A stretch of DNA of 64,000 nt. Source: Octopus vulgaris (lineage: Eukaryota). Below, in pieces: positions 1,766 to 48,297 of this stretch. Each line of letters starts with the position of its first letter. The first letter of the stretch is position 1. The notes under the pieces are model-generated. The model worked only from the letters and a program-made list of their open reading frames with translations, was not told where the DNA came from and did no database searches. Made by a program: the position numbers and the translations under genes. The DNA lies in the NCBI GenBank assembly GCA_951406725.2, contig OX597814.1, forward strand, positions 155,930,001-155,994,000, in the 5' to 3' direction.

Positions 1766-3780
1766 TTAGATGTCATTTTTATATTGTAAATTCTGAAAAT
1801 TCACTTCGGGGATAAGTAAGTGTAAGTGTTCCAAGACATGGTAGTTTATGGTTGAGACCCAAATTGCAGGTAATCTTTCGATTTTCCATGAAACGAGAAA
1901 CCAAACGCAGCTGCGTTGAATGCTGTGGGCGGATCGGGGTGTCATTGCCAAGCTTGGTGTCTCAGAGGTGTTCCGCGAACCGGTCAGCCAAGAGGCGTCT
2001 CGTTTGATCGATGTACAGAGGACAGAGAGAGCAGGAGATGCAGTAAATAACATTACTTGAGGTAAAGGTAAAGGAGTCGGTGATGTGATAGGGACGGTTA
2101 TGGGTACCAGTGTGGTACTGGAGAGGTAGGAGTAGGTGCGACAGGGTGAACGGGAGCAAGGGACGGAGCCAGGCTGGGAGGCAGGTGTAGGGACGGTCAC
2201 GCAAGGTATAGGCTCGTTTGAAGGAGGGAAGGGGTAGGTTAGGGAAGATGTGCGAAGGGTGGGCCTGTAGTCGACGGAAAGCTCGCTCGGAGAACGGTGC
2301 GTTGGAGGGGTTGGGTGGAGGGGGTGATAGGTAAGAGGAAACGGGAGACGGGTAAGGGTGGGGTGACTGTGGGAAGAAAGAACAGATGCATAGTACACTA
2401 ATCGTCCCCGGTTAAGGGTAGTGTGGATAATCGCGTGGGGATATCCACGTAGGTTGAAGTGGTGAGCTATGAGTTGAGACTGAGTCTCAAAATCATAGTC
2501 GCCATTGCAGAGCCTGCGTAGGCGGAGGAATTGGGAATAGGAAATGGAGAGTTTGGTGTGGGTAGGGTGGGAGAACTTAAGGTATGAGTGTGAGTCAGTG
2601 TATTTGTACTGGGTGGAGATGGTGAGGGTGGAGTAGTATATGCTGACAGAATTGTCGAGAAATTCGATGGAAGAGTTAGAGATAGTACAGGAGATTTCGA
2701 GGGCAGAATAGAAGCACGGGTCAGCACGGGTTTCGAACTCGTTACTGGGCAGAGTGAGAGCGATGAAGCGCAGACTCTTACTGAGAAGAGAGCGCACCGC
2801 TTCAGAGAGGAGGAGAACCGGACGAATTGTAACAACAGACTGAAGTGGGAGGAGGGGGAGTTAGGTCGGGGAAGGTGAAAGTGGTGGTAGAAGTCTGAGA
2901 GGAAAGAGGAGGAAGATGTGCGTAGGAGATTTGGAGTAATGGAAGGGTGGGAGTGAAGATGAGCGGCAGTGGGTCGGAGATGGAGGGAGATGGGTAATTG
3001 TAGTGGCATCGGGTGGGACAGGATGAAAGGGTGAGTGGAGTTTGTTATTTAGTGCGAGCGATAAAGTCGTGGAAAATGTGGTTTAAGTGGAAGATAAAGT
3101 GTAAGGTGGAATGTACAATTGATGATGAGCAGTAGGAAAAGAGGTGGAATAAGCAAAAGGGATAGGCGGTCGAGGATGTGTATTTGTGAGAGATTGGAAC
3201 GAATGGTGGAACGCATAAGGCGATAGGGAGCAGTGCGAAGTATGGGTAAGATGGCTGAAGCAGAATGGAAAGTAGAGTTGAAATGGAGGCGAAAATATTT
3301 GGGGATGAGGTGGTGGTGAGGGCAGCGACCGAGAAACGTGGCTACAAAACTACAAAAGCGATTTTTTTTTTGAAAATCAGTAGGGGAAACAATATATTAG
3401 AAGGTTGAAAGCAGCGGATACGAAACGTGATAAAGTTTTTGTTTTTAAAGGTAAAGGTGGACAAGGAAGGATTCATAATTAGACATGTTGGGAAAAAGAG
3501 GAAAGAGAAAAAGTTAAAATGGTGAGAGAATGGCAAGGATATTAACGTACGGAGTTTAAAAAATCAGAAAGTTCAAATGTCGTGGTAGATTAGAGCGATT
3601 TACATCAACGAAAATAGCCAGTGAGATCCGTGGAGTCCGAAAGAGTACGAAGATCCAGTGGTAATCCGGGTGGAGTGCTGCTTATCTGGACGAGAAGAGG
3701 TACAGAAAGTTCGAGAATTAGCTAAGATTCAAGTCCAAGAGATTAAGAAGTTCAGTCAGGCAGGATTAAACTAAGGTAAC
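1766..3780 (-). mobile_element. Degenerate Penelope-like element (RT thumb, Cys linker, GIY-YIG endonuclease)
   Basis: ORF 1766..2797 has FLD..YKYTDSHSYLKFSHPTHTKLSISYSQFLRLRRLC..RGYP (PLE RT C-terminus) and PCSRSPCRT. ORF 1962..2204 has SSNVIYCISCSLCPLYIDQTRRLLADRFAEH (GIY-YIG). Frameshifted; the 5' boundary is approximate. Confidence 0.85.
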
Positions 3781-22830: not shown

Positions 22831-24245
22831 TCATATGTTGTGGTGTGTGCTATTGCTCCATTCTAGTTTTCTATTCAGGCTAGGTTTACTTTCTATTATA
22901 TGTGTAGCTTCTGTAATTTGTCTAATTGTTGCATCTGTTCTATATGTGGACAATATCTTAATCTCTATGTTATTGATTGATCCCCCGTGTTCCTGTTCGG
23001 CGTGTTGGTACAGAATCGCTGAGCTTTTACCTTCCTTGAGTTGTCTCCAATGTACATTCACCCGCTCTCCAATGCTTCTTGCTGTTTCCCCTACGTATGT
23101 TACTGTCTCGTTACTGCATCGTCCCTCTATACATCTTATACTATAGACTACATTTCTGGCTTTACAGTTTGTTTGTGGGCTAAATCTACATACAGTGCAA
23201 TAGTTATCCGTACAGAGGGTTCTACTAAAAGGATAGGTTCTACCAATTATAGATCTGATAGGGTTGCCTGGCTTTTCAACAACCTTAATTCTTAGTTTAA
23301 GTTTATCTAGGGTCCTTCTAAAGCGGTACGCCAGTTCACCTCCAGGGGTGGTGTCAACGAACATGACACTCTGGTATTTATGGCTATCATACCAAGAGTT
23401 GGCCTTCCCTATTTTCTTTTTTGTCCTTTCTATAGTGTTCCATGACTTGTTCCTATAGATTGGGCAAATCCCATTCCTATCATTACATAATATATTATCA
23501 AATTTCTTCATGGCTCCTTTGTATACTCAGATCCTTTCTTTATGGCTGTAACCTGAGAACTGCATGCGGTGAATGAAATACTGTATGTGTCTCTTTAATT
23601 CTGTAGGCTCGCACATGCGTGACACATTTCTCATTATTCTGACGAGGTCTGCCATCAAAATATTGAATTTGGCATTGCCCGCAATGGTTGAGTTCCGGTG
23701 GATCAGGTATTTTGAGGCCATAGGTTTTGCATAGTATGAATGAAGGATATGGGTTTTATTTTTCACAATTTCTAGCCAGAGTTCAGTGTCTAGTACTGGT
23801 AGTCTATGGTTGGGGTGTTTAGTGGGGTAGTCTATTGTGACCTTAATACTCTGGTGGATGGAGTTAGCTATTTGCTGGATGCTTTCCATAGTATTAGTTT
23901 CTATTACTATATCAACATTACTCTCTTGTGGGGGTGCCTTTACTACTATGTTGATATCATCAACATAGCGAGAGTACATGTTTACGAGTATGGATTTCTG
24001 CAGTAGGCATTCTTTAAGCCTTCTGTCCCACCATACCATGAAGAGGTTGGCCACATCACCAGCGATACTAACACCGATGGCTGCCCCATCGTCCTGGGCA
24101 TATATTTTATTATTAAATTTAAATGTGTGGCCTTTTAGGGTAACTCTTATACTAGCTCCTAGTGCATGTGCGATCATTTTCTTTACCTGATGGACATTTG
24201 CGGGGCTCCGTATGGCTCTGGTCCATCCGCGCCATCTACTGGTCC
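22831..24245 (-). mobile_element. Naiad-like Penelope element: RT + Cys linker + GIY-YIG, 5'-truncated, single in-frame TGA
   Basis: GAAIGVSIAGDVANLFM, RYVDD, LPVLDTELW, YYAKPMAS, FVDTTPGGELA, IKVVEKPG, CTDNYCTVC, VVYSIRC..YVGETARSIGER..H, LNRKLEW. ORFs 23527..24177 and 22831..23511 are in the same frame, separated by TGA at 23527-23529. Confidence 0.88.
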
Positions 24246-32800: not shown

Positions 32801-35651
32801 AGTTACTCAGGCTTGCATCAAATGATATAGAGGCGTGTACCTTGCATCAAACGATGTAGAGGTGTGTACAGAAAGAGGAGGGGACATATTGAACGGCATA
32901 TATTTAATTTGGCATCTAAATATATACATAATATCATTAAAGGAGCATTGAAGTGTTACATGATTCAATAAAACAATGTTTGTAGCATATATAGATTCAA
33001 AAAAAAACAAGACGAAATAGATGAAATAAAAAAAAAGAAACGTTTTAATGTAAGCATCGCGACCCCGTAAAGCGAGTCTTTCGCCCTGAATTGCATATGG
33101 CTGATTGAAGCTACAGTAATGCAGGCACCTCTCTGTGTAGTTGAAGTGGCTTAAACGTTGCCAGATGTGATACTTATTTTCCAAATCACGCCCATTAGTG
33201 ACACTGTCAATCTATATGAATATGGCAATTAATAGTAAATAAGACAATAGTCAAATTAGGACATAAAGGGTAAAATGTAATGATTGATCGTATGAAGAAA
33301 CTGAATGCAATAAGATAATACATTTGTGATCTTTAAAATCAGTTGATCATCTTCACCGAACTTGTGAAACAAGTTTTTTGAAAATTGTAATTTCTTTTCT
33401 TGAAATTTACTCAATAAAAAATAGGGCGTATTCCTATTCAAAGGAAAAATAAAGCAGTTATAATTTTCTCCTGAGAACTTTGCATTCTTAAACAAGCAAT
33501 TAGAATATCTATTTTTTATACACAAACTTACATCTGTGTTAATTTTACTGTACATGTTCCTTAAGTATTTAAGCGCGTCCGAAACGACTACCATCCAAAC
33601 AAAGCATACTCTTTTATAGAAGGTTGTGACTCCAATGAGATTTAGCTGCTAGCTTCAGTAAATTGGCTACACAAAGAATAGTTCAAAGACTCGATACGAC
33701 GCATTTTTATAAATATCGGAATAGATTTTAATTCATAACTCCGTCACAATTACCAATTTGTGTAGAAAAAGCCACCGAGACAGCAAGGGACTTACAGCGA
33801 AATCAATTAATCTTCATGATTAGTAGCTATTTCTCCCTCAAACTATCCCCCAAGAACATAAAAAATACATTCGACAATGTAACCCCGTAGTCCGAGATGC
33901 GCTATTGTTGAGAAATAGATGGCTTCTTAATGACAGAACAATTTAATCAGAGTTCACTCTGGAAACAAATTGGCTGTTGCAGCAACAACAACATATTCTA
34001 TGAAGTTGATACCATCTAATCTCAAGTTATACGTAAAACACCAGTTACAATACTAAACCGTGTGTGCTTGTATTTTCCAGTGATTTTGTTGTTTACAGCG
34101 GTGAGCTATATCGGTTATGTGATTTATTCAGAGCAACTAGATGAATTGGACCATATTTATCTCAAATGACTCCGACATCGGCATCCCTGAGGTATAAGTG
34201 GCTAGATACGGACATTTCACAGAGATGGTGACAGATAACGAACTGGCAACGTTTAACTCGCCGTCAGTAATAAACGACCATAGATTACAGGCATACATAC
34301 ATAAACATCGAGATTTACACTCATGTAAACATATATATATATAAATATATGTGTGTGTGTGTGTGTGTGTGTATAAATATAGTTATATTCATATATATAT
34401 ATATATATATACGTATGTGAACACACATAAATACACATACGTGTGCGTATATGTGATAGTCCGAGCCTTTATATTTTTGTTTTCATTATTTATCCGTTAT
34501 CAAGAGATCGTTTAACACTATTCTTTTTAAATGCGTGCCATTGTCATCAAAAATGCGTGTTCCACGCTCCCGTTTTCTCGCTCATTGATGGCATTCGTGA
34601 TAACAAACGCAGTTCGTTTATTTATCATTGCATTACTAATTTAAATCTAAAGTAAATAGAGCAAATTCTCTATCACATATGAAATTAATTTGTTTAAATA
34701 ACATGCTTAATATTTCTAAAACAGTCCTAACTAACTGCTTACTCACTTAGCTACAAAGAAAAGTCGAGTTGGTTGGTTCTTACATAAACAAATATTCTTA
34801 TGCATTCGTGTTCCTGATAATTCTGCTCTTTAGTAAAAAAATCTCTGCTTTCGTGAAGTTTTCTTATAAGTTTCTGTATGGTTGTACCTCGTCGAGAATC
34901 GGCTGCGTAATTTTCAATCAATGAAGACTTGCTTCATGTATGAATCATGCCAAATATCATAAGTTCACTAATACTTTTCAAACCAAATTTAAATGTGACA
35001 TGAATAATTTTATGAGTCCCGAAAAACTTCAATTTTCTGATAAATCTAATAAAACAACAAAATTATCTGTCACTATTTTTTATACAAATATTTTCCAAAC
35101 ATAAATGACAAACATAAATATTTAAAATAGTGTAAATTTTTAGTATAAAAATATGATTCAGAAAGTTGCAGTCCATCTGAACTCGAAGCTTATCTTGCGC
35201 TTAATAACCATAAGGGACATTTTGCCTCAAATCCTGAGTGTAAATAAGTTGTGTACAAAATGGAGACAGGGTTAATAACGAAGAATATTTTACATAAAAT
35301 TAATTATAATGTTAGGAAAACAACGAGCCTCTAGGAATGGAATAACAGCAAAACAATGATTAATTCATACGATAGTATTAATATTCAATGCGGGTCTAGG
35401 ATCATCCGAATTAACATTACTGAAACTTATTCTTGTAGGAATTTATTTCACTCATTACTGCCCGATATTTTGCTAGAGTACATAATAACATAGAAGGTAG
35501 TCACATAGTTTTCAATTTTCACCTAGGGAAGTTTCTGTCTGGTTTCGGTCCTGTGTTAACATAACAAATCCCACGAGTTTCTTCTTTGTCATTACGGAGC
35601 CGTTCGATTATAGAGAGATATATGATCTCATCGAACAATATATATATAAGG

Positions 35652-36308
35652 ATTAATAAATCTCTGAACGAGATATAAACAGTAACCGCTCGACAACGTA
35701 AAGTGTACTAGCCATCTGAATGTGGCTAGCCACTGGGGGTGGGGTGTTACTGATGCTTTTAGCCCCAGGAGATCAACGTCACCAGCTGGCCTTAGACACA
35801 AAATTTCAGTGCCCTTGTGTTATTTGCAAAGGGAGGTCATCCTCCCTCGAAAACCTAAGTGATACATACGGACTATAGTTTCAAGGTAATTGTCTCTCGT
35901 CAACGCATGGTAAACACCGATTTTCGATGAAGGAGACCCTCTGCAAATAATACTATTTAACGTTTTTCACAGCAAGCACTGTCACTGATTTAGAAAAACT
36001 GTCTGAAAGCATTAATAAATCTCTGAACGAGATATAAACAGTAACCGCTCGACAACGTAAAGTGTACTAGCCATCTGAATGTGGCTAGCCACTGGGGGTG
36101 GGGTGTTACTGATGCTTTTAGCCCCAGGAGATCAACGTCACCAGCTGGCTTTTCGAGGGAGGATGACCTCCCTTTGCAAATAACACAAGGGCACTGAAAT
36201 TTTGTGTCTAAGGCCATCTGGTGACGTCGATCTCCTGGGGCTAAAAGCATCAGTAACACCCCACCCCCAGTGGCTAGCCACATTCAGATGGCTAGTACAC
36301 TTTACGTT
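35652..36308 (-). mobile_element. Retrozyme-like 359-bp tandem unit (1.4 copies) plus a 159-bp inverted copy, flanked by (TA)n
   Basis: 35652-35790 repeats at 36011-36149 (period 359). 36150-36308 is the reverse complement of 35695-35853. Confidence 0.85.
35865..35909 (-). ncRNA. Type I hammerhead ribozyme motif
   Basis: Minus strand CAUGCG-UUGACGA-GAGacaauuacCUU-GAAA-CUAUAG-UC-CGUAUG: 6-bp stem I, palindromic stem III, GUC cleavage triplet. Confidence 0.8.
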
Positions 36309-36324
36309 AATATATATATATATT

Positions 36325-36607
36325 GATAGAAATGATAAGACAACAAAAGAATGAAAGAGACCTTGATATTATGTAATAAGAGGAATTTATTTGTAAATGT
36401 AATATGTGACAATTATTCGGCAGCCATGATAAAACTCCGAGTTTCGGATGTCGGGGTGGAAATCCACGCCGCCATCTCTTCGGTTATCCGGCCATGGGAA
36501 AAATGCATTTCTTTCCGATGGCCGGATAACCGAAGAGATAGCGGCGTGGATTTCCACCCCGACATCCGAAACTCGGAGTTTTATCATGGCTACCGAATAA
36601 TTGTCAC

Positions 36608-36611
<4 letters not shown>
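36325..36611. mobile_element. Foldback element (arms 36402-36505 / 36506-36611) between (TA)n tracts
   Basis: Near-perfect ~210-bp palindrome centred on atgcat. The minus arm continues to AATAAA and then (TA)n. Confidence 0.88.
36525..36585 (+). ncRNA. Type I hammerhead motif, CCGAAGA core (mirrored in the left arm)
   Basis: GAUAA-CCGAAGA-GAU(A/G)gCGGcGUGGauuuCCACcCCGaCAUC-c-GAAA-CUCgGAG-UU-UUAUC. Confidence 0.7.
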
Positions 36612-37062: not shown

Positions 37063-37247
37063 TCCCTTTGCAAGGCGATACGAATTTGAATTTTATCATA
37101 CGGAATATGAGTGTTATTTGGTATAAAGAGGTACCCTATCATAGAAATTAGAGGAAATAAAGTAGACAATAGTGGAGTAGAATTTATGGATGATAGTGTT
37201 TTCAGGTAAATGGACAGAAATCGATAAAGTAACTTGGTATTTTACAA
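37063..37247 (+). repeat. 185-bp inverted duplicate of 39998-40182
   Basis: Reverse-complement match, with one mismatch seen by eye. Confidence 0.9.
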
Positions 37248-37519: not shown

Positions 37520-37802
37520 TGTATTTGTCATGACTTGTATTGGTATTTTGTACTGTATTCCACTTTCACTCACAACTCCACTTCTACCAAAAATAATATA
37601 TCTCCTGACCTACATCAACCAATCATAGCCTTCATTTATCACAGTTTCATAATATTATGTTCCACCATATCACCTCAATCCTCTTCGATTTCAATTTCAT
37701 CCATAACCTTTCATTATTTCATTTCAGCAAATTGTATTTGCTTGAAAATCTATATATAAATATCCTGCAGAGTGAGTTGTTCGTCGAGGAAGCGGTGCCT
37801 AC

Positions 37803-37847
37803 CATACGTTGATAATAGGCAAACACCTTGAAACCTAGGTCCGTGTG
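37803..37847 (+). ncRNA. Type I hammerhead ribozyme motif, U3-A8 core (copy 1)
   Basis: CAUACG-UUGAUAA-uAGGcaaacaCCUu-GAAA-CCUAGG-UC-CGUGUG. Stem I extends through gaagcgg/ccgcuuc and uauccugca/ugcaggaua. Predicted cleavage after 37841. Confidence 0.82.
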
Positions 37848-38162
37848 TGGTTTCCGCTTCATCGGGGAATTATCTCCCTTTGCAGGATAGAGGACGCCGT
37901 GATGGTGTCAAGCCTATCTGGCGACGTTGATGTTCGCCTGGGGCTAAATGCAACAGTAACACCCCCACCACCCTGCCCTATCCCTAGCCATATTCAGATG
38001 GCTTTAGTCCCTTATGTTATGGAGCAGTTACTGTCTATATCTCATTTAGAGAATTATTATTGCTGTCGAACAGATTTTCGAAATCAGCAAATTGTATTTG
38101 CTTGAAAATCTATATATAAATATCCTGCAGAGTGAGTTGTTCGTCGAGGAAGCGGTGCCTAC

Positions 38163-38207
38163 CATACGTTGATAATAGGCAAACACCTTGAAACCTAGGT
38201 CCGTGTG
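38163..38207 (+). ncRNA. Type I hammerhead ribozyme motif (copy 2, identical)
   Basis: Same sequence 360 nt downstream. Predicted cleavage after 38201. Confidence 0.82.
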
Positions 38208-38649
38208 TGGTTTCCGCTTCATCGGGGAATTATCTCCCTTTGCAGGATAGAGGACGCCGTGATGGTGTCAAGCCTATCTAGCGACGTTGATGTTCGCCTG
38301 GGGCTAAATGCAACAGTAACACCCCCACCACCCTGCCCTGTCCCTAGCCATATTCAGATGGCTTTAGTCCCTTATGTTATCATATTTTGTTTTTCATTTA
38401 ATAAGTAAATTATTTAGCTTGTATTTATTTCCTAATGTCTAATAATTTATTTCCTTGTTTTTAATCTAACATCTAATTCTATTCTCTTATCTTAACAATT
38501 TCGTATCAACATGCTGTATAAAATATTACTAATTAAACATTTTTTTCGGAATTTCGTCTTATCCAGTTTCATTACATCCCACTACAAACATTTCTTGTTT
38601 TCCTAACTATAGATCTCACCCTCTTTTTTACCGGACATTAGCGCCACCC

Positions 38650-41600
38650 TCTCCCTTTTTTTTATCGTATGCTCTCATCGAAAAGATAATAGTACCAGCA
38701 AATCATTGGGATCGATGGCATCGACTGATTACTAACTCCCCAAATTCCTGGACTTTTGCCTAAATTAGAAATTACTCCTATAACTATTACTGAATAAAGA
38801 AATAGCGGTTCTCTCCAGTTTTGATGTTCTTCCGGATTCTTTATGCTATATCTCTGATCCTTCCTTAGAGAAAACATTTTCCTTAACGCATGCGATGTTT
38901 TGAGGACAGTCACCCCTTGTATACTTCCAATGATGTCAGGTAGTTCGAAATTTTAATTTCTTATAGATGGTTTCCAGTGCACTAACAACTATGCTCATCG
39001 CGCTAATTCTTCAGGCTGTATGAATACGCTGTATTGTGAAAGCTAGGCCATGCTACTTACGGGTTTGTCATTCTCGTCTCTGTTCTCTTAGGGCGGTAAC
39101 GCTATAAAAATGAAAACCCATTCATTGGTCTCTTTTCATATGAGTGTGGTATTTGATAGATTTTACTGAAGTATCTTACCGGTGCAGTTTGTCACATCCC
39201 GAGTGATTTTCAACTTGCTCATTCTCTGTAACTGGAAAGAGTTGGTGTTCATGCCACTCATAGTTACACTCTAGCTCGTACTTTACCAACCGTGAAATGT
39301 TGTATCGTTTTCTATACCCCTGGGCCGATTCTCAACATACACTAACTACAATCGTTTACAGATTAGTTTCCACACAATGGACATACATATATTGCTCATG
39401 TCTTATCAATGTTGTACTTGATAGCATTAGTTAGCAAAACTTGTTCTTGAGCAGCAAGGAACAAACCTTTAGTCTCCTTTAAAAACCATATCTTAACCAT
39501 ATCCAGAATTCCTCACCTCGATTCGATATTTGTTGGAAAAACTCTCCATGTAGTACTTTCTCTAGTTTTCTATCTTACCCTTCATGAGTCTTCCTTTTAA
39601 ATTCCTTAAGCTTCTGGTTATCATCCCTAGTCACCTCACACATTGTGACCCGAAACATCCATTTATCTATATTCTTAGTATGTGCATTCAATGATTTACC
39701 TTCTTTCCTACCACACTTCTCTACTCTATGCAATCTTTCCCTCCGGCATTGTTTGGAAGATAGCCCTAGCTACATTACTTCTGGTATGAAAGTATTTGTG
39801 CTTATCTTTCTACTTCTTTCTATGCTGACCTGTTTCTCTTTTGTCAAATCTACAGGTTATTACATCAGCCCATGCTTACAATTTAAGTGTTAATGCCATG
39901 CCATTTGTCATATTGATTCATTTAGCTTGAATCTACACGATTTAGATTTTTTCTTCTAATCTGCTATGATCATCTTGATTTCAGTCATCTGGTTTCATTG
40001 TAAAATACCAAGTTACTTTATCGATTTCTGTCCATTTACCTGAAAACACTATCATCCATAAATTCTACTCCACTATTGTCTACTTTATTTCCTCTAATTT
40101 CTATGATAGGGTACCTCTTTATACCAAATAACACTCATATTCCGTATGGTAAAATTCAAATTCGTATCGCCTTGCAAAGGGAGACAATTTAATCCCTTCT
40201 AGCCCCGTTAAACGTCAGATTATCCATCAATAGTGGGAAGTGGTTGTTATGTTTTTTCAACAGACTCGATCTTCAATCTATAACCAGATTTTATTTTCAA
40301 AACCAAAGTCAATGGTAACAATAAAAACAAACAACTGTGGCAAAGGTCCTCAACCTGCTGTCAAACTTGTCTTTGAATTCCTAGTACTGTAGCTTACTCA
40401 AGATATAGTTTGAGCTGCCCCGATCATCTCCCGGCATTTCCTAATCTACGAGTGACATATCATGCCTTTAGCATTTGATGCACTGTTCCTTTAGATCCCT
40501 CCCCCGATTCTTTTATTCATCAGCTATTAATGGCTTTCTTTCCAAGAGTTCATACTGTATTTCTCCCACTATTCCATATCACGAGAAACCAGACTATCAC
40601 TTGGTAGTTAATAACATAAGCTCCAGCTTTTGTTGAGACCGGGTAAATTTGCCTCTTCTCGTTTTTCTCCATCTACAATTTCGAACACCAGGGTCTGGTT
40701 AGTTCTAAACAGTCTATTTTGTTTGAACTGTAGGCATCTTTCCTCATATCATCTGATCTTTATTCCATCAGCTTTGATCTTTTTGAATCAAACAATGTTC
40801 CATTTTCTTACGGGTGTTATATCACTTTGTCAAGTCACTTATTTCTTCACCTTACCTCTTCAATCTAACTCAAATTATTTTTTTAATTATCCATATTACC
40901 TCCGATTTACGAAAATTGTATATTGCTTCTCTTTCTTTTCTCTTCCTTCAACATATACTCATTCTTTCCGTAGTGACATGTGCAGCGCCATACATGAACA
41001 CGATTCCTCTTTGTGATAGTTTTAGTTTGAATTTTCAGAACCTTTTCTTTTACTTCCCCATCCTCCGATATCAGCTTTGAAGACGAACGAAATACTGCTA
41101 AGTATTTTGACTGGCGTGGTAACAATTCTGCCAGCTTACCGCCTCTGAAGTTCCTCAATGACGGCAATCCTTTCTTCTCTACAAAAAACATCACCTGTAG
41201 AAGTTCTGTCATGCGAATCTGTGCTGATCTCTCCTCGTGACTTTTCAGCTAAAGGGTTATATTGTGGTTCTCTACAGCTGGCATATTTCCCTCTTCCATA
41301 TCCGAGCTATGCTGATTCCCTTATACAACGGGTATTTCTTCCGGGACTGCATTTCATTTCTCATTGCCTCTGTGCTTTTATCTTGTACCACATTTTCTAA
41401 TCAAAACTTCATATTGATTTGAGTCGCTTCTTTTCATTGACAACCTTCAGCTCATCTTGGTGGTAAAATTTTCTCCAGGGATGTGATCATTTATTTTATA
41501 GTCTTGTTTTTCTAGCTGACTCCTGATGTAACTTGCAAAGAACATTTTATTGTCCTCTTTTGACCTTATTAATTTCATTTGTTGTTCGTCAACTGCAACT

Positions 41601-41700
41601 TGATTATGATCGGGCCTACGAGATAGTTTACTGGACACCTGCTTGACGAGACACCTTCCCTAAAAACTTCAGTCCTTTTAACAACGTTACATTTAAATCC
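38650..41700 (-). mobile_element. Decayed R4/Dong-like non-LTR retrotransposon (RT, CCHC, restriction-like endonuclease)
   Basis: Manual translation remnants LQGD (~40170), YLP..GGK (~39750), ETKGLFLAAQEQVLLT (~39450), CPLCG (~39375) and VIVIGVI (~38780). Boundaries are approximate. Confidence 0.65.
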
Positions 41701-41984
41701 AGTTCTTGACGTTTTTCTAACACATTAGGTATATGTTGTAAGTTTTCTCAATCAGTAGATTTCAACAATTCAAGTGGTCATCCAAGATTCTTAGAGGCCC
41801 GTTTGTTCACATTTAAGCTGGTTACTTTGTGCTTGTCGCAACAAATAGTATTTAACTGTGCATCAAGTAAATATAAAAGAAATAAGATAAGGGAGACAAG
41901 AGAAGGAATAAAATTGATTGAAGAACAGATCTTTATTTTAGAGGTTATTAACTCCTAGATGACTTTTCTTTTAAAGAAATTCAG

Positions 41985-42200
41985 AGGCGGCAAGCTGGCA
42001 GAATTGTTAGCGCAACAGGCAAAAGACTTAGCAGTATTTCGTCCGTCTTTACGCTCTGAGTTCAAATTTCACCGATTCTCAATTTGCTTTTCATCCTTTT
42101 GGGGGCGATAAATTAAGTGCAGTGAAACATTGTGGGTTAATATAATCGACTAGTCTCTCCCCGCAAAATTTCAGCCTTTGTTTCTTAGTAGAAAGCATTA
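41985..42200 (+). mobile_element. SINE family 1 copy
   Basis: ggcggcaagctggcagaattgttagc...gagttcaaatttc...tttcatccttttgggggcgataaattaagt. Confidence 0.8.
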
Positions 42201-42751: not shown

Positions 42752-43094
42752 TCAAAATAAGCAAAAAGAACATATTCGGTAATTTGGTACGATCGTTTCA
42801 CGCTACATCATTTTATTAAACATTGTAAGTATTACAACAGTTTTAAAATGTTGAGCAATCATCAGCCATTTATAGATGTTTTCCATTAATACATATTTTC
42901 AAATTAATTGATAACAGCCCTCTCTATAATGTTATCAATTAATATGAAAATATGTATTAATGGAAAACCTCTATAAATGGCCGATGATTGCTCAGCATTT
43001 TAAAACTGTTGTAATACTTACAATGTTTAATAAAATGATGTTGCGTGAAACGATCGTACCAAATTACCGAAGATATTCTTGTTGCTTATTTTGA
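42752..43094. mobile_element. Foldback element, 165-bp arms (42752-42916 / 42930-43094)
   Basis: Reverse-complement arms with a few substitutions and a 13-nt spacer. Confidence 0.88.
42785..42868 (-). ncRNA. Type I hammerhead motif, canonical CUGAUGA core (mirror copy 42978-43061 on plus with CCGAUGA)
   Basis: UGG-CUGAUGA-uUGC...GCGu-GAAA-CGAUCG-UA-CCA, with palindromic stem III. Confidence 0.7.
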
Positions 43095-45294: not shown

Positions 45295-47719
45295 ATGGAT
45301 CACTTTTGCGTCCGTTATTTTAGAAATTTTGCCTTTATGAGGGTCATTTTTAGTCATTTCGGTTGTTTGTGGGTTTTAAGGATCTTAAGTGTGTGTAAAA
45401 TGTCCTTTAATTTGGAATCCTTATGCAACATTGGTAAATTTTAGGTGACAATGGGGAAGGTTTCTTTGTTTCTGGGGTTGTATGTGTATATGTACGACAG
45501 TATTTTCGGGGAAGGTGTGTTGCTGTGTTGAACTTTTCTTAAGGTTTCTATGTAGATATGTGTTGCAAGTCTGATTCCATCCTCTATGAGATGAACTGGA
45601 CAGTGGTTGTTAATCGGGGTGTTTTTGAGATCTTACAGTGTAAAGTCTCTGTTATTTTGTCTGACACTATTGGTCATATCCTTCTTGCAAGGTTCAAGGG
45701 GATGTTTGTTTTGGTGTCTTGGGTGGCAGGAATTAAATAGTAGATATTGTTTAGCGTCTATGGTTTTGTAAAATATCTCTGTTTCTATTTTTAGGTTTAT
45801 TTTATAATTAATATATCCAAGAATCGGAGTTCCTTGTGGTGGTATTCCGTTGTAAACTGTATCTTTGGGCTGACGCTGTTCAATAGTCTTTTGAATTTTA
45901 GGAGTTAGCCTGTGTTTTCATTCCAGAGAATGAATCAGTCATCTAGGAGTCTTTTCCAATTTTCTTTTATGTATTGGGAAAGGGGGTTTCCAAAGGTAGA
46001 TAACGATTTCTGGTAATTATTATTTCCAGATAGCCCATTGTTAGATTCTCAATGACCAGGGCGACCCTAGTGCCCATGTTATTTCCAGATTTTTGTTGAT
46101 AAAGCATATTGTCAAACATAAAATGGTTGTTTCGTAGGATGAATTCAACCGATTCAATTATGAATTCTTTGCTGATCCTTTCCGGTATTTCTTCCGGATA
46201 TTGGTTCAGCCAGAACTGAATTGCCTCTAGCCCATAATTATGAGGTATACTGGTATATAAATTAATCACATCAAATGAAACCATGATTGTTTCTTCCTTG
46301 ACTTCTTTGGAGGTGATTTAACATGTCCAAGTCATATCTAATATAGTTATTGATGTGTTTAAGAAAGGGTTTCAGGAGGATGTTCATAAATAGACTTAGT
46401 CTGTGTGCTTCACAGGCTGGGCCAGTTATAATGGGTGGTAATTGTAGGTCCGCTGGGTTTGTTGCATGTATATACGTCTTCGGTGATTTTTTATGTTTTC
46501 ATTTATAATCTGACTTTTGTTGAATTTTGGTAGACTGTAGAAAAGGTTAGGTTTGCATTTAAAGTTTGTTAAATAGTTAATTTCTTTGGTTGTTAGTTCT
46601 TTTCCATGGGTTTTAATTAGTGAGGACAAGATTTTCATTATTTTTTGCGGGGTGTGTTTAGTGATTTTTTCGTAATGTTGACTGTCATTCAGCATAGGGA
46701 TTAATAGATTTCTATAGTATAATGTGTCTATTACTACCACTGCACTTCCTTTATCTGCTTTCTTAATCGTTATATCATCTTTATTTTGAAGTTCTGTTAG
46801 TTCCTTCCATTGTGTAGTGCTAAACCTTTCCCTAATAGCCCGCTCTCTGTCAGGTTAATTTAGTATTATTTTGATCTGGAATTTGCGTGGAAGAATAATT
46901 GGTGTTGATTTCATCCATCTCTCGTAGATATCTGCTCTGTTGGAATTTTTTATCATATTCCAGAAAGCTAGTTTTCTATTATGGAAGTTTGTATTCCAGA
47001 TGTTCTCTACTTTTCTTTTTGTTAGATTGACTTGTAAGTATGACGTCCTGGTGTGTTTCATTTGATGTGCGTTGGTTGTTCTTCGGTTTGTTTGTGAAGA
47101 CCGACTTCAGTGTGGTGCATAGAGTGTTTAAATCTTTACTAATCTGTTCCTGTTTTAAACTGAATTCATTGTAAGTGTCGTGGAGAGAGAGTTGTTCATT
47201 GTTGGGTTTGTTAATAAACATTGAGTTGAGAGTTGTGCATAAAAGTTGTAAGCCATTACTAACCTGATCTGTGAGATGAGTTGTTTCTTCAATGTTTTTC
47301 CTCTCCCGGGCGAGTAGGTTTGAGTTCTCGATTTTGTTATTTATGATAATGAGGTGCGATTTAATATTTTTGAGTTCTTTAAGTATGTCCTAGTTTGTAA
47401 TTTTATCTGATGTATTGGTCTTCTGTGGCATTTTCGGTTCCACGTGTTTTAGCTTATGGTTGAGGGAGTTGGTATGTGAAAGAACGTCGTTGAATGTACA
47501 ATAGACAAAAATTAGGTGAAAAAAATTAAAAAAGACGTGTTATATGGTTAAAGAATATATTTAAATTGTTATGCTAGAAAAATGTTATAAAATTTTGTGT
47601 ATAGTAACATTGTTTTTGGAGAAATAACCATCATATTTTCTTCTCAAATTTCTCAAATTTCTTTGCCAATACTGTGTCATCTCTTTGCTAGATATCACAG
47701 TACGAGAGTTCCAGACAGG
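45295..47719 (-). mobile_element. Degenerate Penelope-like element (N-terminus and RT)
   Basis: IKKADKGSAVVV (~46740), FYSLPKFNK, VSFDVINLYTSIPH, NNHFMFDNMLYQQKSGNNMGT, IFYKTIDAKQYL and TNIPLNLARR. Multiple stops and frameshifts. Confidence 0.88.
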
Positions 47720-48297
47720 GGAAGGTAATCGCTCAGGCGAAGATGCACTCTGCACCGACAGCAGATTGCATTCCTAGAATACAGAATGATACCCTTTAGT
47801 GAACACATTCAGAAATGCGCAAAGCAACTGCTACCACAATTTGTAATCTTTACATTATATCAATGTGCCATTGGAACGCCAACACAAGTTAAATTAAATA
47901 AGGAAACCTATTTCATTGGAAAATATAAGCCAAAACTTGACCATTTCTAGCATTTTTAAATAAGGAAACTTACCTCACAGTATAAAAATATAAAGCAAAA
48001 CCTAGCATTCAATTCTTTCTAAATCAAAACATGTTAAATTAATAAAAGCTAATCATTCCCAACATTTTTGATTATCTCTTTTATACCGAAAATATCCCTG
48101 ATTATCTTATCCTGTCTGGAACTCTCATACTTCATAGCAAAAAGATGACGCAATATCGGTAAAGAAATTTGAGAAATTTGCAAAGAAAATACGAAACCGA
48201 AATTTCTCCAAAAACAATTTTACTATACACAAAATTTTATAACATTTTTCTAACATAACGATTTAAATATATTCTTTAAAACCATATAACACGTCTT
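47532..48297. repeat. Diverged ~187-bp inverted repeat at the PLE 5' end (47532-47719 / 48111-48297)
   Basis: The arms align as reverse complements (aagacgtgttatatgg..ccagacagg / cctgtctgg..ccatataacacgtctt). Confidence 0.8.

What the first reader, a model, noticed from the sequence alone, without database searches (positions are those of the whole stretch)
35652..36308. Sister 359-nt retrozyme-like family: structure conserved, sequence diverged
Seen: the minus strand is homologous to the 37724 unit (gggctaaa.gca.cagtaacacccc, tagcca.attcagatggct, gttactgt.tatatctc) with almost the same unit length. The HHR changes are compensatory: stem I CAUGCG/CGUAUG vs CAUACG/CGUGUG, stem III palindrome CUAUAG vs CCUAGG, outer helix uauuugca/ugcaaaua vs uauccugca/ugcaggaua. 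The locus is a 1.4-mer starting at an arbitrary phase. Inference: selection acts on RNA structure, and a greater-than-unit, permuted insert is what reverse transcription around a circular template would produce.
Basis: partly seen in the sequence, partly recalled or inferred. Interest (0 to 1): 0.85.

Follow-up and report, generated by a model that had tools for sequence, protein, structure and literature searches.

The report
Two-armed Penelope-mobilised hammerhead retrozyme
This is one dead-end copy of a small, protein-free jumping element that carries a self-cutting RNA motif; its many relatives in the genome sit in the pattern typical of Penelope-type retrotransposons and were likely copied, from both sides of the DNA break, off a single and probably circular RNA.

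Summary
The homology is real (70% identical units, 359 vs 360 nt), but the locus is not a plain 1.4-mer. It is a 502-nt arm plus an inverted 159-nt arm between 12-nt direct repeats in a (TA)n tract. Across genomic copies the 3' ends are fixed at two sites about 45 nt apart, while 5' ends are uniform in phase. Two-armed copies are always head-to-head, and 84 of 87 with both ends canonical use one of each site. This is the published Penelope-like (PLE) insertion signature on a known class, the metazoan non-LTR retrozyme. Structure is under selection: at paired sites, inherited changes mostly keep the pair (21:6) and copy-private changes mostly break it (32:78). No coding PLE carrying this sequence as its pseudo-LTR was found in 61 loci. 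A circular template is favoured (about 55%): 278 scar-free crossings of the ribozyme cut site, arms up to 10.8 units, and mostly one haplotype per insertion. It is not proven, because mosaic arrays and non-canonical ribozyme cores allow uncleaved linear multimers. No RNA evidence was obtained. The scan has noted the same kind of element before, in this window, elsewhere in this genome and in other genomes.

The parts
35648..36149 (-). Long arm, 502 nt = 1.4 units of the 359-nt family A monomer; 3' end at the distal fixed site (T), 5' end at phase 214-217
36150..36308 (+). Short inverted arm, 159 nt (phases 154-312); 3' end at the proximal fixed site (S); joined head-to-head to the long arm with a 3-nt overlap
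   Evidence: (I2)
35648..35694 (-). 47-nt PLE-type 'tail' between the S and T sites, containing a small conserved hairpin
35865..35909 (-). Type I hammerhead motif: stem I, core UUGACGA (U3.G8), short stem II (broken by a private change at 35893), GAAA, palindromic stem III, predicted cut between 35871 and 35870; the only hammerhead in this insertion
35821..35949 (-). Long outer helix that encloses the hammerhead (arms 35942-35949 and 35821-35828)
35710..35728 (-). Conserved hairpin just upstream of the S site (also at 36069-36087 minus and 36275-36293 plus)
35637..35648 (+). Left copy of a 12-nt target-site duplication candidate (low complexity, in a TA tract)
36309..36320 (+). Right copy of the 12-nt target-site duplication candidate
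37724..38380 (+). Independent insertion of sister subfamily B: one 657-nt arm (1.8 units of 360 nt) ending at the homologous S site, with two hammerheads (37803-37847, 38163-38207; core UUGAUAA, U3-A8)

Best explanation
The locus is a two-armed, head-to-head insertion of a non-coding 359-nt hammerhead repeat (a non-LTR retrozyme) with the fixed 3' ends, tail and target-site duplication of Penelope-like elements, likely made by a PLE reverse transcriptase/endonuclease acting in trans on one, probably circular, RNA. Shown from sequence: the architecture, two fixed outer ends 43-47 nt apart, uniform inner ends, 10-15-nt duplications, TA-tract bias, purifying selection on the helices, and the same haplotype in both arms of most insertions. 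Inferred steps: (1) a multimeric copy is transcribed; (2) hammerheads, probably working as dimers through the palindromic stem III, cut out a monomer that is ligated to a circle; (3) the PLE protein, probably a dimer, nicks both strands of AT-rich DNA about 12 nt apart; (4) one nick primes at S and the other at T on the same RNA; (5) each enzyme runs through the ligated cut site and stops at a roughly constant rate (mean run about 420 nt in the youngest subfamily); (6) the two cDNA ends are joined by microhomology. This particular copy has one damaged hammerhead and is predicted to be a dead end.
For: Ends: of 102 arms in 64 A/B loci, 91 end at S or T; Rayleigh R is 0.86 for 3' phase and 0.05 (p 0.77) for 5' phase. 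All 38 two-arm A/B loci are head-to-head. S+T pairing: 27 of 28, 35 of 36 and 22 of 23 further distinct loci (counted by hand) among two-arm loci with both ends canonical. TSD: 10 of 10 S+T loci outside TA tracts have 10-15-nt duplications, against 4-6 nt for shifted controls. 37 of 64 loci abut (TA)4+, against 5% of window positions. These match PLE hallmarks in PMC8557442 and PMC3846280 (passages) and the two internal RT start sites that bound the tail in PMC11167929 (parts 1-2 read). Selection: on 33 pairs in 98 copies, internal-branch changes keep:break 21:6, terminal 32:78, Fisher p 5e-6; 15 of 38 pairs show double changes, 0 of 500 shuffles as high. One template: at shared-variant sites in B, arms agree 41 of 45 and tandem units 34 of 37, against 181 of 981 between loci; 45 of 50 young-subfamily loci are homogeneous at four haplotype sites. 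Continuous template: 0 private indels within 3 nt of the cut in 172+51+55 crossings; arms of 6.0 and 10.8 units; little or no pile-up of 5' ends at the cut (3 vs 2.5 expected; 3 vs 0.8, P 0.049 unadjusted). Four private variants are present in every unit of both arms. Intact 781-aa RT + GIY-YIG frames exist in many copies, end in TA tracts at two sites about 35 nt apart, and share the U3-A8 core variant.
Against: No RNA evidence: cleavage, circles and expression were not tested. The cores are non-canonical (U3.G8 54, U3-A8 26, C3-G8 17, C3-A8 1 of 98 copies; U4C in the youngest subfamily). In the one in vitro PLE system, uncleaved RNA was the dominant substrate (PMC11167929). Eight of nine predicted Xenopus retrozyme dimers did not cleave in vitro (bioRxiv 2026.07.22.740005). 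Mosaic arrays exist (L003, L062; L222, L244, L248, L255, L261; L241), which a single monomer circle cannot give without template switching or later recombination. Of 48 variants seen in both arms, 39 are in every copy but 35 of those are shared haplotype markers; among private ones, 4 fit monomer reiteration, 2 fit a linear donor and 1 fits neither. In family A, tandem units agree at only 43 of 70 shared-variant sites. Only 1 of 42 pairs is individually significant in a tree-aware covariation test, and partners slid by -2 or +2 also keep pairs fairly often on internal branches (9:3 and 11:5). The partner PLE is not identified by homology. Samples are the best-scoring 40 candidates per search, so the A/B sets are biased to long, young copies.
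Confidence: 0.6

Rival explanations
1. Same element and same PLE machinery, but the template is an uncleaved linear multimeric transcript from a tandem donor array; the hammerhead is slow or used at another step, and arrays are kept homogeneous by youth and unequal crossing-over.
For: Attenuated-looking cores; PMC11167929 found hammerhead mutants did not affect insertion in vitro; long arrays exist (10.8 and 6.5 units); 5 of 48 two-arm variants fit a linear-donor pattern; L241 has three adjacent units sharing three private changes, as local expansion would give; scar-free crossing of the cut is equally expected.
Against: The palindrome and helices around the cut are conserved with compensation, so cutting seems to matter for spread. 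No locus shows read-through into a donor's inverted junction (all 38+41 two-arm loci are simple head-to-head). Recurrent single-unit variants are few (10 of 124 sites; by my rough estimate no more than chance). The longest array's private 307G occurs in none of the other 50 loci. Four private variants are in all units of both arms.
Confidence: 0.28
2. The template is a cleaved but unligated monomer whose ends are held together by stem I, and the enzyme jumps across the nick on each round.
Against: 0 private indels within 3 nt of the cut in 278 crossings, whereas the two jumps seen there lose bases. Those two are 2 of 57 listed discontinuities (P 0.25), or about 2 of 20 once alignment artefacts are set aside by eye (post hoc, weak).
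Confidence: 0.07
3. The units are ordinary pseudo-LTRs or truncated 3' ends of a coding PLE, or a satellite amplified locally, with no life cycle of their own.
For: Fixed 3' termini and the inverted arrangement are what truncated PLE copies show; bioRxiv 2026.07.22.740005 links Xenopus retrozymes to pLTRs; only part of the genome's PLE diversity was sampled (150 of 6136 GIY-YIG candidates scored).
Against: In 161 retrozyme loci the few PLE coding pieces lie hundreds of bases away, and those inspected are separate insertions. In 61 coding-PLE loci the retrozyme profile hits only three neighbouring insertions. Arms longer than one unit continue into another unit, not into coding sequence (48 of 91 arms exceed one unit). 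Each copy has its own target site.
Confidence: 0.05

Closest known systems
Metazoan non-LTR retrozymes (Cervera and de la Pena 2020, PMC7229834: passages and Discussion read; bioRxiv 10.64898/2026.07.22.740005: parts 1-3 of 5 read, supplements closed)
   Same: Non-coding tandem units of about 300-400 nt, GC 43-45%, one type I hammerhead per unit, short palindromic stem III, a U-U mismatch at the base of stem II in subfamily B as in axolotl HHR_Amex2, co-occurrence with coding PLEs; circle plus PLE RT is their stated hypothesis.
   Different: Cleavage and circular RNA are shown there and untested here. The cores here are mostly U3.G8, U3-A8 or U4C. The passages read do not describe head-to-head arms, two fixed ends or target-site duplications for retrozymes, and no homologous coding pLTR was found here.
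Endonuclease-bearing Penelope-like elements (PMC8557442 and PMC3846280: passages; PMC11167929: parts 1-2 of 4; PMC4209133: part 1 of 4)
   Same: 5' truncation, partial tandems, inverted truncated copy, tail at one end, 8-10-bp duplications in rotifer examples, microsatellite bias, two internal RT start sites bounding the tail, U3-A8 hammerhead variant.
   Different: No ORF (longest ATG frame 52 and 67 aa); the tail is 43-47 nt rather than 30-40; the hammerhead has a full 6-bp stem I inside a long outer helix rather than the minimal form; arms wrap the whole unit up to 10.8 times.
Non-autonomous Chlamys PLEs such as MRC1 (PMC8557442, passage)
   Same: Non-autonomous PLE derivatives with multicopy head-to-tail insertions.
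   Different: Those resemble their autonomous partner at the 3' end; here only a faint resemblance near the T site was seen by eye.

Membership tests
Metazoan non-LTR retrozyme | Short (150-450 nt) non-coding unit in tandem copies, no LTR, PBS or PPT | tested here: met
   359/360-nt units, arms to 10.8 units, longest ORF 52/67 aa; PBS and PPT were not searched for
Metazoan non-LTR retrozyme | One type I hammerhead motif per unit | tested here: met
   Motif with stems I-III in each unit; 1668 pattern matches genome-wide, 0 for the reversed control. Rfam gave no match at gathering score; the core is variant
Metazoan non-LTR retrozyme | At least two consecutive hammerheads (the 2026 preprint's 'active' criterion) | tested here: not met
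   This locus has one hammerhead; the sister at 37724 and many relatives have two or more
Metazoan non-LTR retrozyme | Self-cleavage of the RNA | not testable with these tools
   Only indirect: conserved palindrome and helices; core conservation on internal branches not significant (1 vs 9 changes, p 0.18)
Metazoan non-LTR retrozyme | Accumulation of circular monomer RNA | not testable with these tools
   Only assembled contigs of unrecorded kind were available; they cannot show circles
PLE-type insertion | Fixed 3' ends at two sites bounding a tail; variable 5' truncation | tested here: met
   91 of 102 arms end at S or T; 5' phase uniform
PLE-type insertion | Inverted 5'-truncated copy joined head-to-head | tested here: met
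   38 of 38 and 41 of 41 two-arm loci
PLE-type insertion | Target-site duplication and AT/microsatellite bias | tested here: met
   10-15 nt in 10 of 10 S+T loci outside TA tracts; 37 of 64 loci at (TA)4+
Autonomous PLE | Own RT + GIY-YIG ORF between pLTRs | tested here: not met
   No ORF in the unit; no ORF found linked in 161 loci
pLTR of a coding PLE in this genome | Homologous sequence directly downstream of a PLE ORF | tested here: inconclusive
   None in 61 coding-PLE loci, but only the best 150 of 6136 GIY-YIG candidates were scored

The most novel reading that the evidence does not exclude
A PLE reverse-transcriptase dimer performs twin-primed rolling-circle reverse transcription: both target strands prime on one circular retrozyme RNA, one at each of two start sites, and each enzyme runs round the ligated ribozyme junction up to ten times. 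The genome's 1,000+ copies would then be a readable fossil record of circular-RNA retrotransposition, including its processivity and a one-S-one-T rule.
Probability: 0.5. Interest if true: 0.68.

Novelty: new member of a known kind. Interest (0 to 1): 0.42.

Why it matters
The class is known, and so is the idea that PLE enzymes copy retrozyme circles, but my five topical searches listed no paper that tests it on insertion footprints. The PLE transposition cycle, including how tandems and inverted arms arise, is described as unresolved (PMC8557442, PMC11167929). This family offers a 360-nt natural substrate with mapped start sites, a very young subfamily (231 exact-match units, about 1.2% divergence between loci) and a candidate intact enzyme in the same genome. 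Circle against linear template is therefore directly testable in vitro and by a full genomic census. The locus itself is an ordinary dead copy.

Tried and rejected
Rfam scan of the window: no match at gathering score. RNA: no RNA holder listed on record; contigs of three runs of guessed kind lie on the stretch only as short pieces (longest listed on the element 215 nt) and one run was unreadable; not used for or against. Per-pair tree-aware covariation on 19 copies: 1 of 42 pairs significant, none significant among all pairs, and the outer helix was entered one column out of register; the same slip was fixed. One search was rerun as after dropping one duplicate, one mis-registered helix and one stem II pair; the result held (31:10 vs 41:87, then 21:6 vs 32:78). 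Pile-up of 5' ends at S or T (collision after a full round): 5 vs 2.7 expected, P 0.14 in the 41-locus set; 8 vs 3.4, P 0.025 with ten hand-picked long loci added; not claimed. Arm lengths are not correlated (rho -0.26, p 0.20) and the two 5' phases are not coupled (p 0.40). L025-L028 looked like a longer element but is a segmental repeat of one insertion. L030's nearby PLE ORF is a separate insertion. Shared flanks between loci are other dispersed repeats at varying offsets, with no common 5' body seen. My flank filter wrongly dropped three distinct loci (L037, L067, L092); they fit the pattern (S-ended single arm; S+T; T+S) but are not in the 64-locus counts. Most 'jumps' are alignment artefacts from subfamily indels. 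Supplements of the 2026 preprint could not be seen and may list related families.

Full report
OBSERVATION. The minus strand of 35648-36006 is a 359-nt unit. It aligns end to end with the 360-nt unit at 37724-38083 at 263 of 377 columns (score 358; 200 shuffles 87.6 +/- 11.5). The reported interval is, however, two arms: a 502-nt arm on the minus strand (35648-36149, 1.4 units) and a 159-nt inverted arm on the plus strand (36150-36308), joined at their 5' ends with a 3-nt overlap. A 12-nt AT-rich direct repeat flanks the whole (35637-35648, 36309-36320). The insertion contains one type I hammerhead (35865-35909). Its core reads UUGACGA, and it has a private change in stem II that other family A copies lack. 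Rfam finds nothing at gathering score.

FAMILY. The window's genome (2.8 Gb) holds many copies: 2776 and 1535 first-look candidates for the two units, of which 40 each were scored, and 1668 exact matches to a degenerate hammerhead pattern against 0 for the reversed control. The copies fall into several subfamilies, about 60-90% identical to each other. They include an older one with a canonical C3-G8 core and a very young one with a U4C core (152 of 158 hammerheads read share one sequence; 231 exact-match units). Divergence between loci is 3.4% (A), 1.7% (B) and 1.2% (young subfamily).

ENDS. In 64 de-duplicated A/B loci (three more were dropped by a filter error, see Tried and rejected), 91 of 102 arms end at one of two homologous sites. 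S lies about 177 nt downstream of the ribozyme cut and T lies 43-47 nt further on. 3' phase is strongly clustered (R 0.86) and 5' phase is uniform (R 0.05, p 0.77). All 38 two-arm loci are head-to-head, as are all 41 in the young subfamily. Where both ends are canonical, one arm ends at S and the other at T in 27 of 28, 35 of 36 and 22 of 23 further distinct loci (my hand count): 84 of 87. All 10 S+T loci outside TA tracts have 10-15-nt target duplications (controls 4-6 nt), and 37 of 64 loci abut (TA)4+ against 5% of window positions. Junctions overlap in 19 loci, are blunt in 11, have a short filler in 7 and a longer gap in 1. These are the PLE hallmarks given in PMC8557442 and PMC3846280 (passages read). 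PMC11167929 (parts 1-2 read) showed in vitro that a PLE protein nicks and extends both strands of AT-rich DNA and starts at two internal RNA sites that bound the genomic tail. S and T are therefore best read as the two RT start sites (inference). The window locus is a typical case: T-ended long arm, S-ended short arm.

STRUCTURE. On 19 natural copies from five subfamily groups, 38 named pairs are 92.7% paired, with double changes at 15 pairs; 0 of 500 shuffles reach this, and slid partners give 24-45%. That control ignores relatedness, and a tree-aware per-pair test finds only the stem III palindrome centre significant (1 of 42). A stronger test uses the fact that only propagating copies pass changes on. 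On a tree of 98 copies, changes at 33 pairs keep:break pairing 21:6 on internal branches and 32:78 on terminal branches (p 5e-6). Paired columns change at about half the rate of other columns internally (0.56 vs 1.04) but at nearly the same rate terminally (1.79 vs 1.98). Slid controls are mixed, two of six also leaning to 'keep'. Selection on structure is supported. Between the two window copies, the stem I differences are one-sided wobbles; real compensations lie in stem III, the outer helix and the stem I extension. U3-A8 and U4C are known natural core variants (PMC4209133 part 1; PMC3088659 passages, where U4C lowers activity in vitro).

PARTNER. The genome has many intact 781-aa RT + GIY-YIG frames. 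A CxxC motif before the endonuclease suggests the Neptune group (recalled criterion). They end in TA tracts at two sites about 35 nt apart and carry a minimal UUGAUAA hammerhead. Their pLTR shows no detectable homology to the retrozyme, and the retrozyme profile on 61 coding-PLE loci hits only three separate neighbouring insertions. In 161 retrozyme loci no PLE ORF was found attached. So this is a free non-autonomous family, and its partner is only a candidate.

CIRCLE OR CHAIN. For a single, continuous template: both arms and all units of an insertion usually share one haplotype (B: 41 of 45 and 34 of 37 sites vs 181 of 981 between loci; young subfamily: 45 of 50 loci). Arms cross the predicted cut up to about ten times, with 0 private indels within 3 nt in 278 crossings and at most a slight excess of 5' ends there. 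Mean run length past the search motif is about 420 nt. Four private variants lie in every unit of both arms. Against a pure monomer circle: mosaic arms occur (L003 and L062; L255, L241, L261, L222, L248); family A agreement is weaker (43 of 70, 38 of 53); 5 of 48 two-arm variants fit a linear donor, 2 of them private; long arrays that could serve as linear donors exist; cores are non-canonical; uncleaved RNA was the main substrate in vitro for a coding PLE; and 8 of 9 Xenopus dimers did not cleave. Two discontinuities resume just inside the predicted cleaved 3' end, a weak hint that cleavage occurs. I put a circle at about 55%, an uncleaved linear multimer at about 30% and jumping across a nick below 10%. 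The 1.4-mer at this locus does not discriminate between them.

KNOWN OR NEW. It works like, and by the testable features belongs to, the metazoan non-LTR retrozymes. Their authors already proposed that a PLE RT copies the circle into tandem cDNA (PMC7229834 Discussion), and a 2026 preprint ties them to PLE pLTRs. Cleavage and circular RNA could not be tested. The one-S-one-T rule, shared haplotype of both arms and scar-free crossing were not found in the papers listed, but the one-sided tail is long known, and the scan has noted similar elements before. Verdict: new member of a known kind, with a useful data set for an open mechanistic question; interest 0.42.

Noticed in passing
window 36313-36611: A second head-to-head, PLE-like insertion directly beside the finding in the same TA tract: 100-nt inverted arms (36402-36501, 36512-36611), each with a hammerhead-like motif whose core is CCGAAGA (U4C). 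A similar core lies downstream of the PLE ORF in L143.
   Followed up: partly
window 45324-46824 (-), 47729-47941 (+), 22867-24153 (-), 2321-2695 (-): Broken coding PLE fragments (27-45% identical to intact PLE proteins of this genome); the 47729 piece belongs to a multi-copy family.
   Followed up: partly
window 37063-37247 and 39998-40182: 185-nt, 99% inverted repeat enclosing the sister copy at 37724; possibly a DNA-transposon-like or another two-armed element.
   Followed up: no
window 42752-43094 and 41080-42049: Further long inverted repeats (165-nt arms 13 nt apart; 79-nt arms 812 nt apart).
   Followed up: no
L199 (G000:C1:27695120-27697294), L255 (G000:C14:72706492-72710747): The youngest subfamily, with the longest arrays seen, has a U4C hammerhead core. 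L199 is a 6.0-mer with units 0-2 nt apart; L255 is a 10.8-mer that is a mosaic of haplotypes.
   Followed up: yes
L003, L007: Both carry the same 25-nt duplication between two copies of a 7-nt word at the hairpin upstream of S; in L003 it coincides with a haplotype switch.
   Followed up: partly
L096:1338-1604: An A-like arm and a B arm lie head-to-head, separated by a TA tract: a chimera or two insertions at one microsatellite.
   Followed up: partly
L013:337-491, L130:15-264, L156, L166: Weak profile hits with 4-nt palindromic stem III in L013 and L130: a more distant retrozyme family.
   Followed up: no
L137-L142, L148: Young PLE family with many intact 781-aa frames, an upstream Asn/Thr/His-rich repeat region and a long repetitive 3' region. 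Three sampled coding PLE families carry U3-A8-type minimal hammerhead motifs.
   Followed up: partly
flanks of L004, L041, L054, L057, L062, L089, L149, L158, L185, L187, L197: One dispersed repeat recurs within 250 nt of many insertions, at varying offsets; it may be a preferred target or simply very abundant.
   Followed up: no
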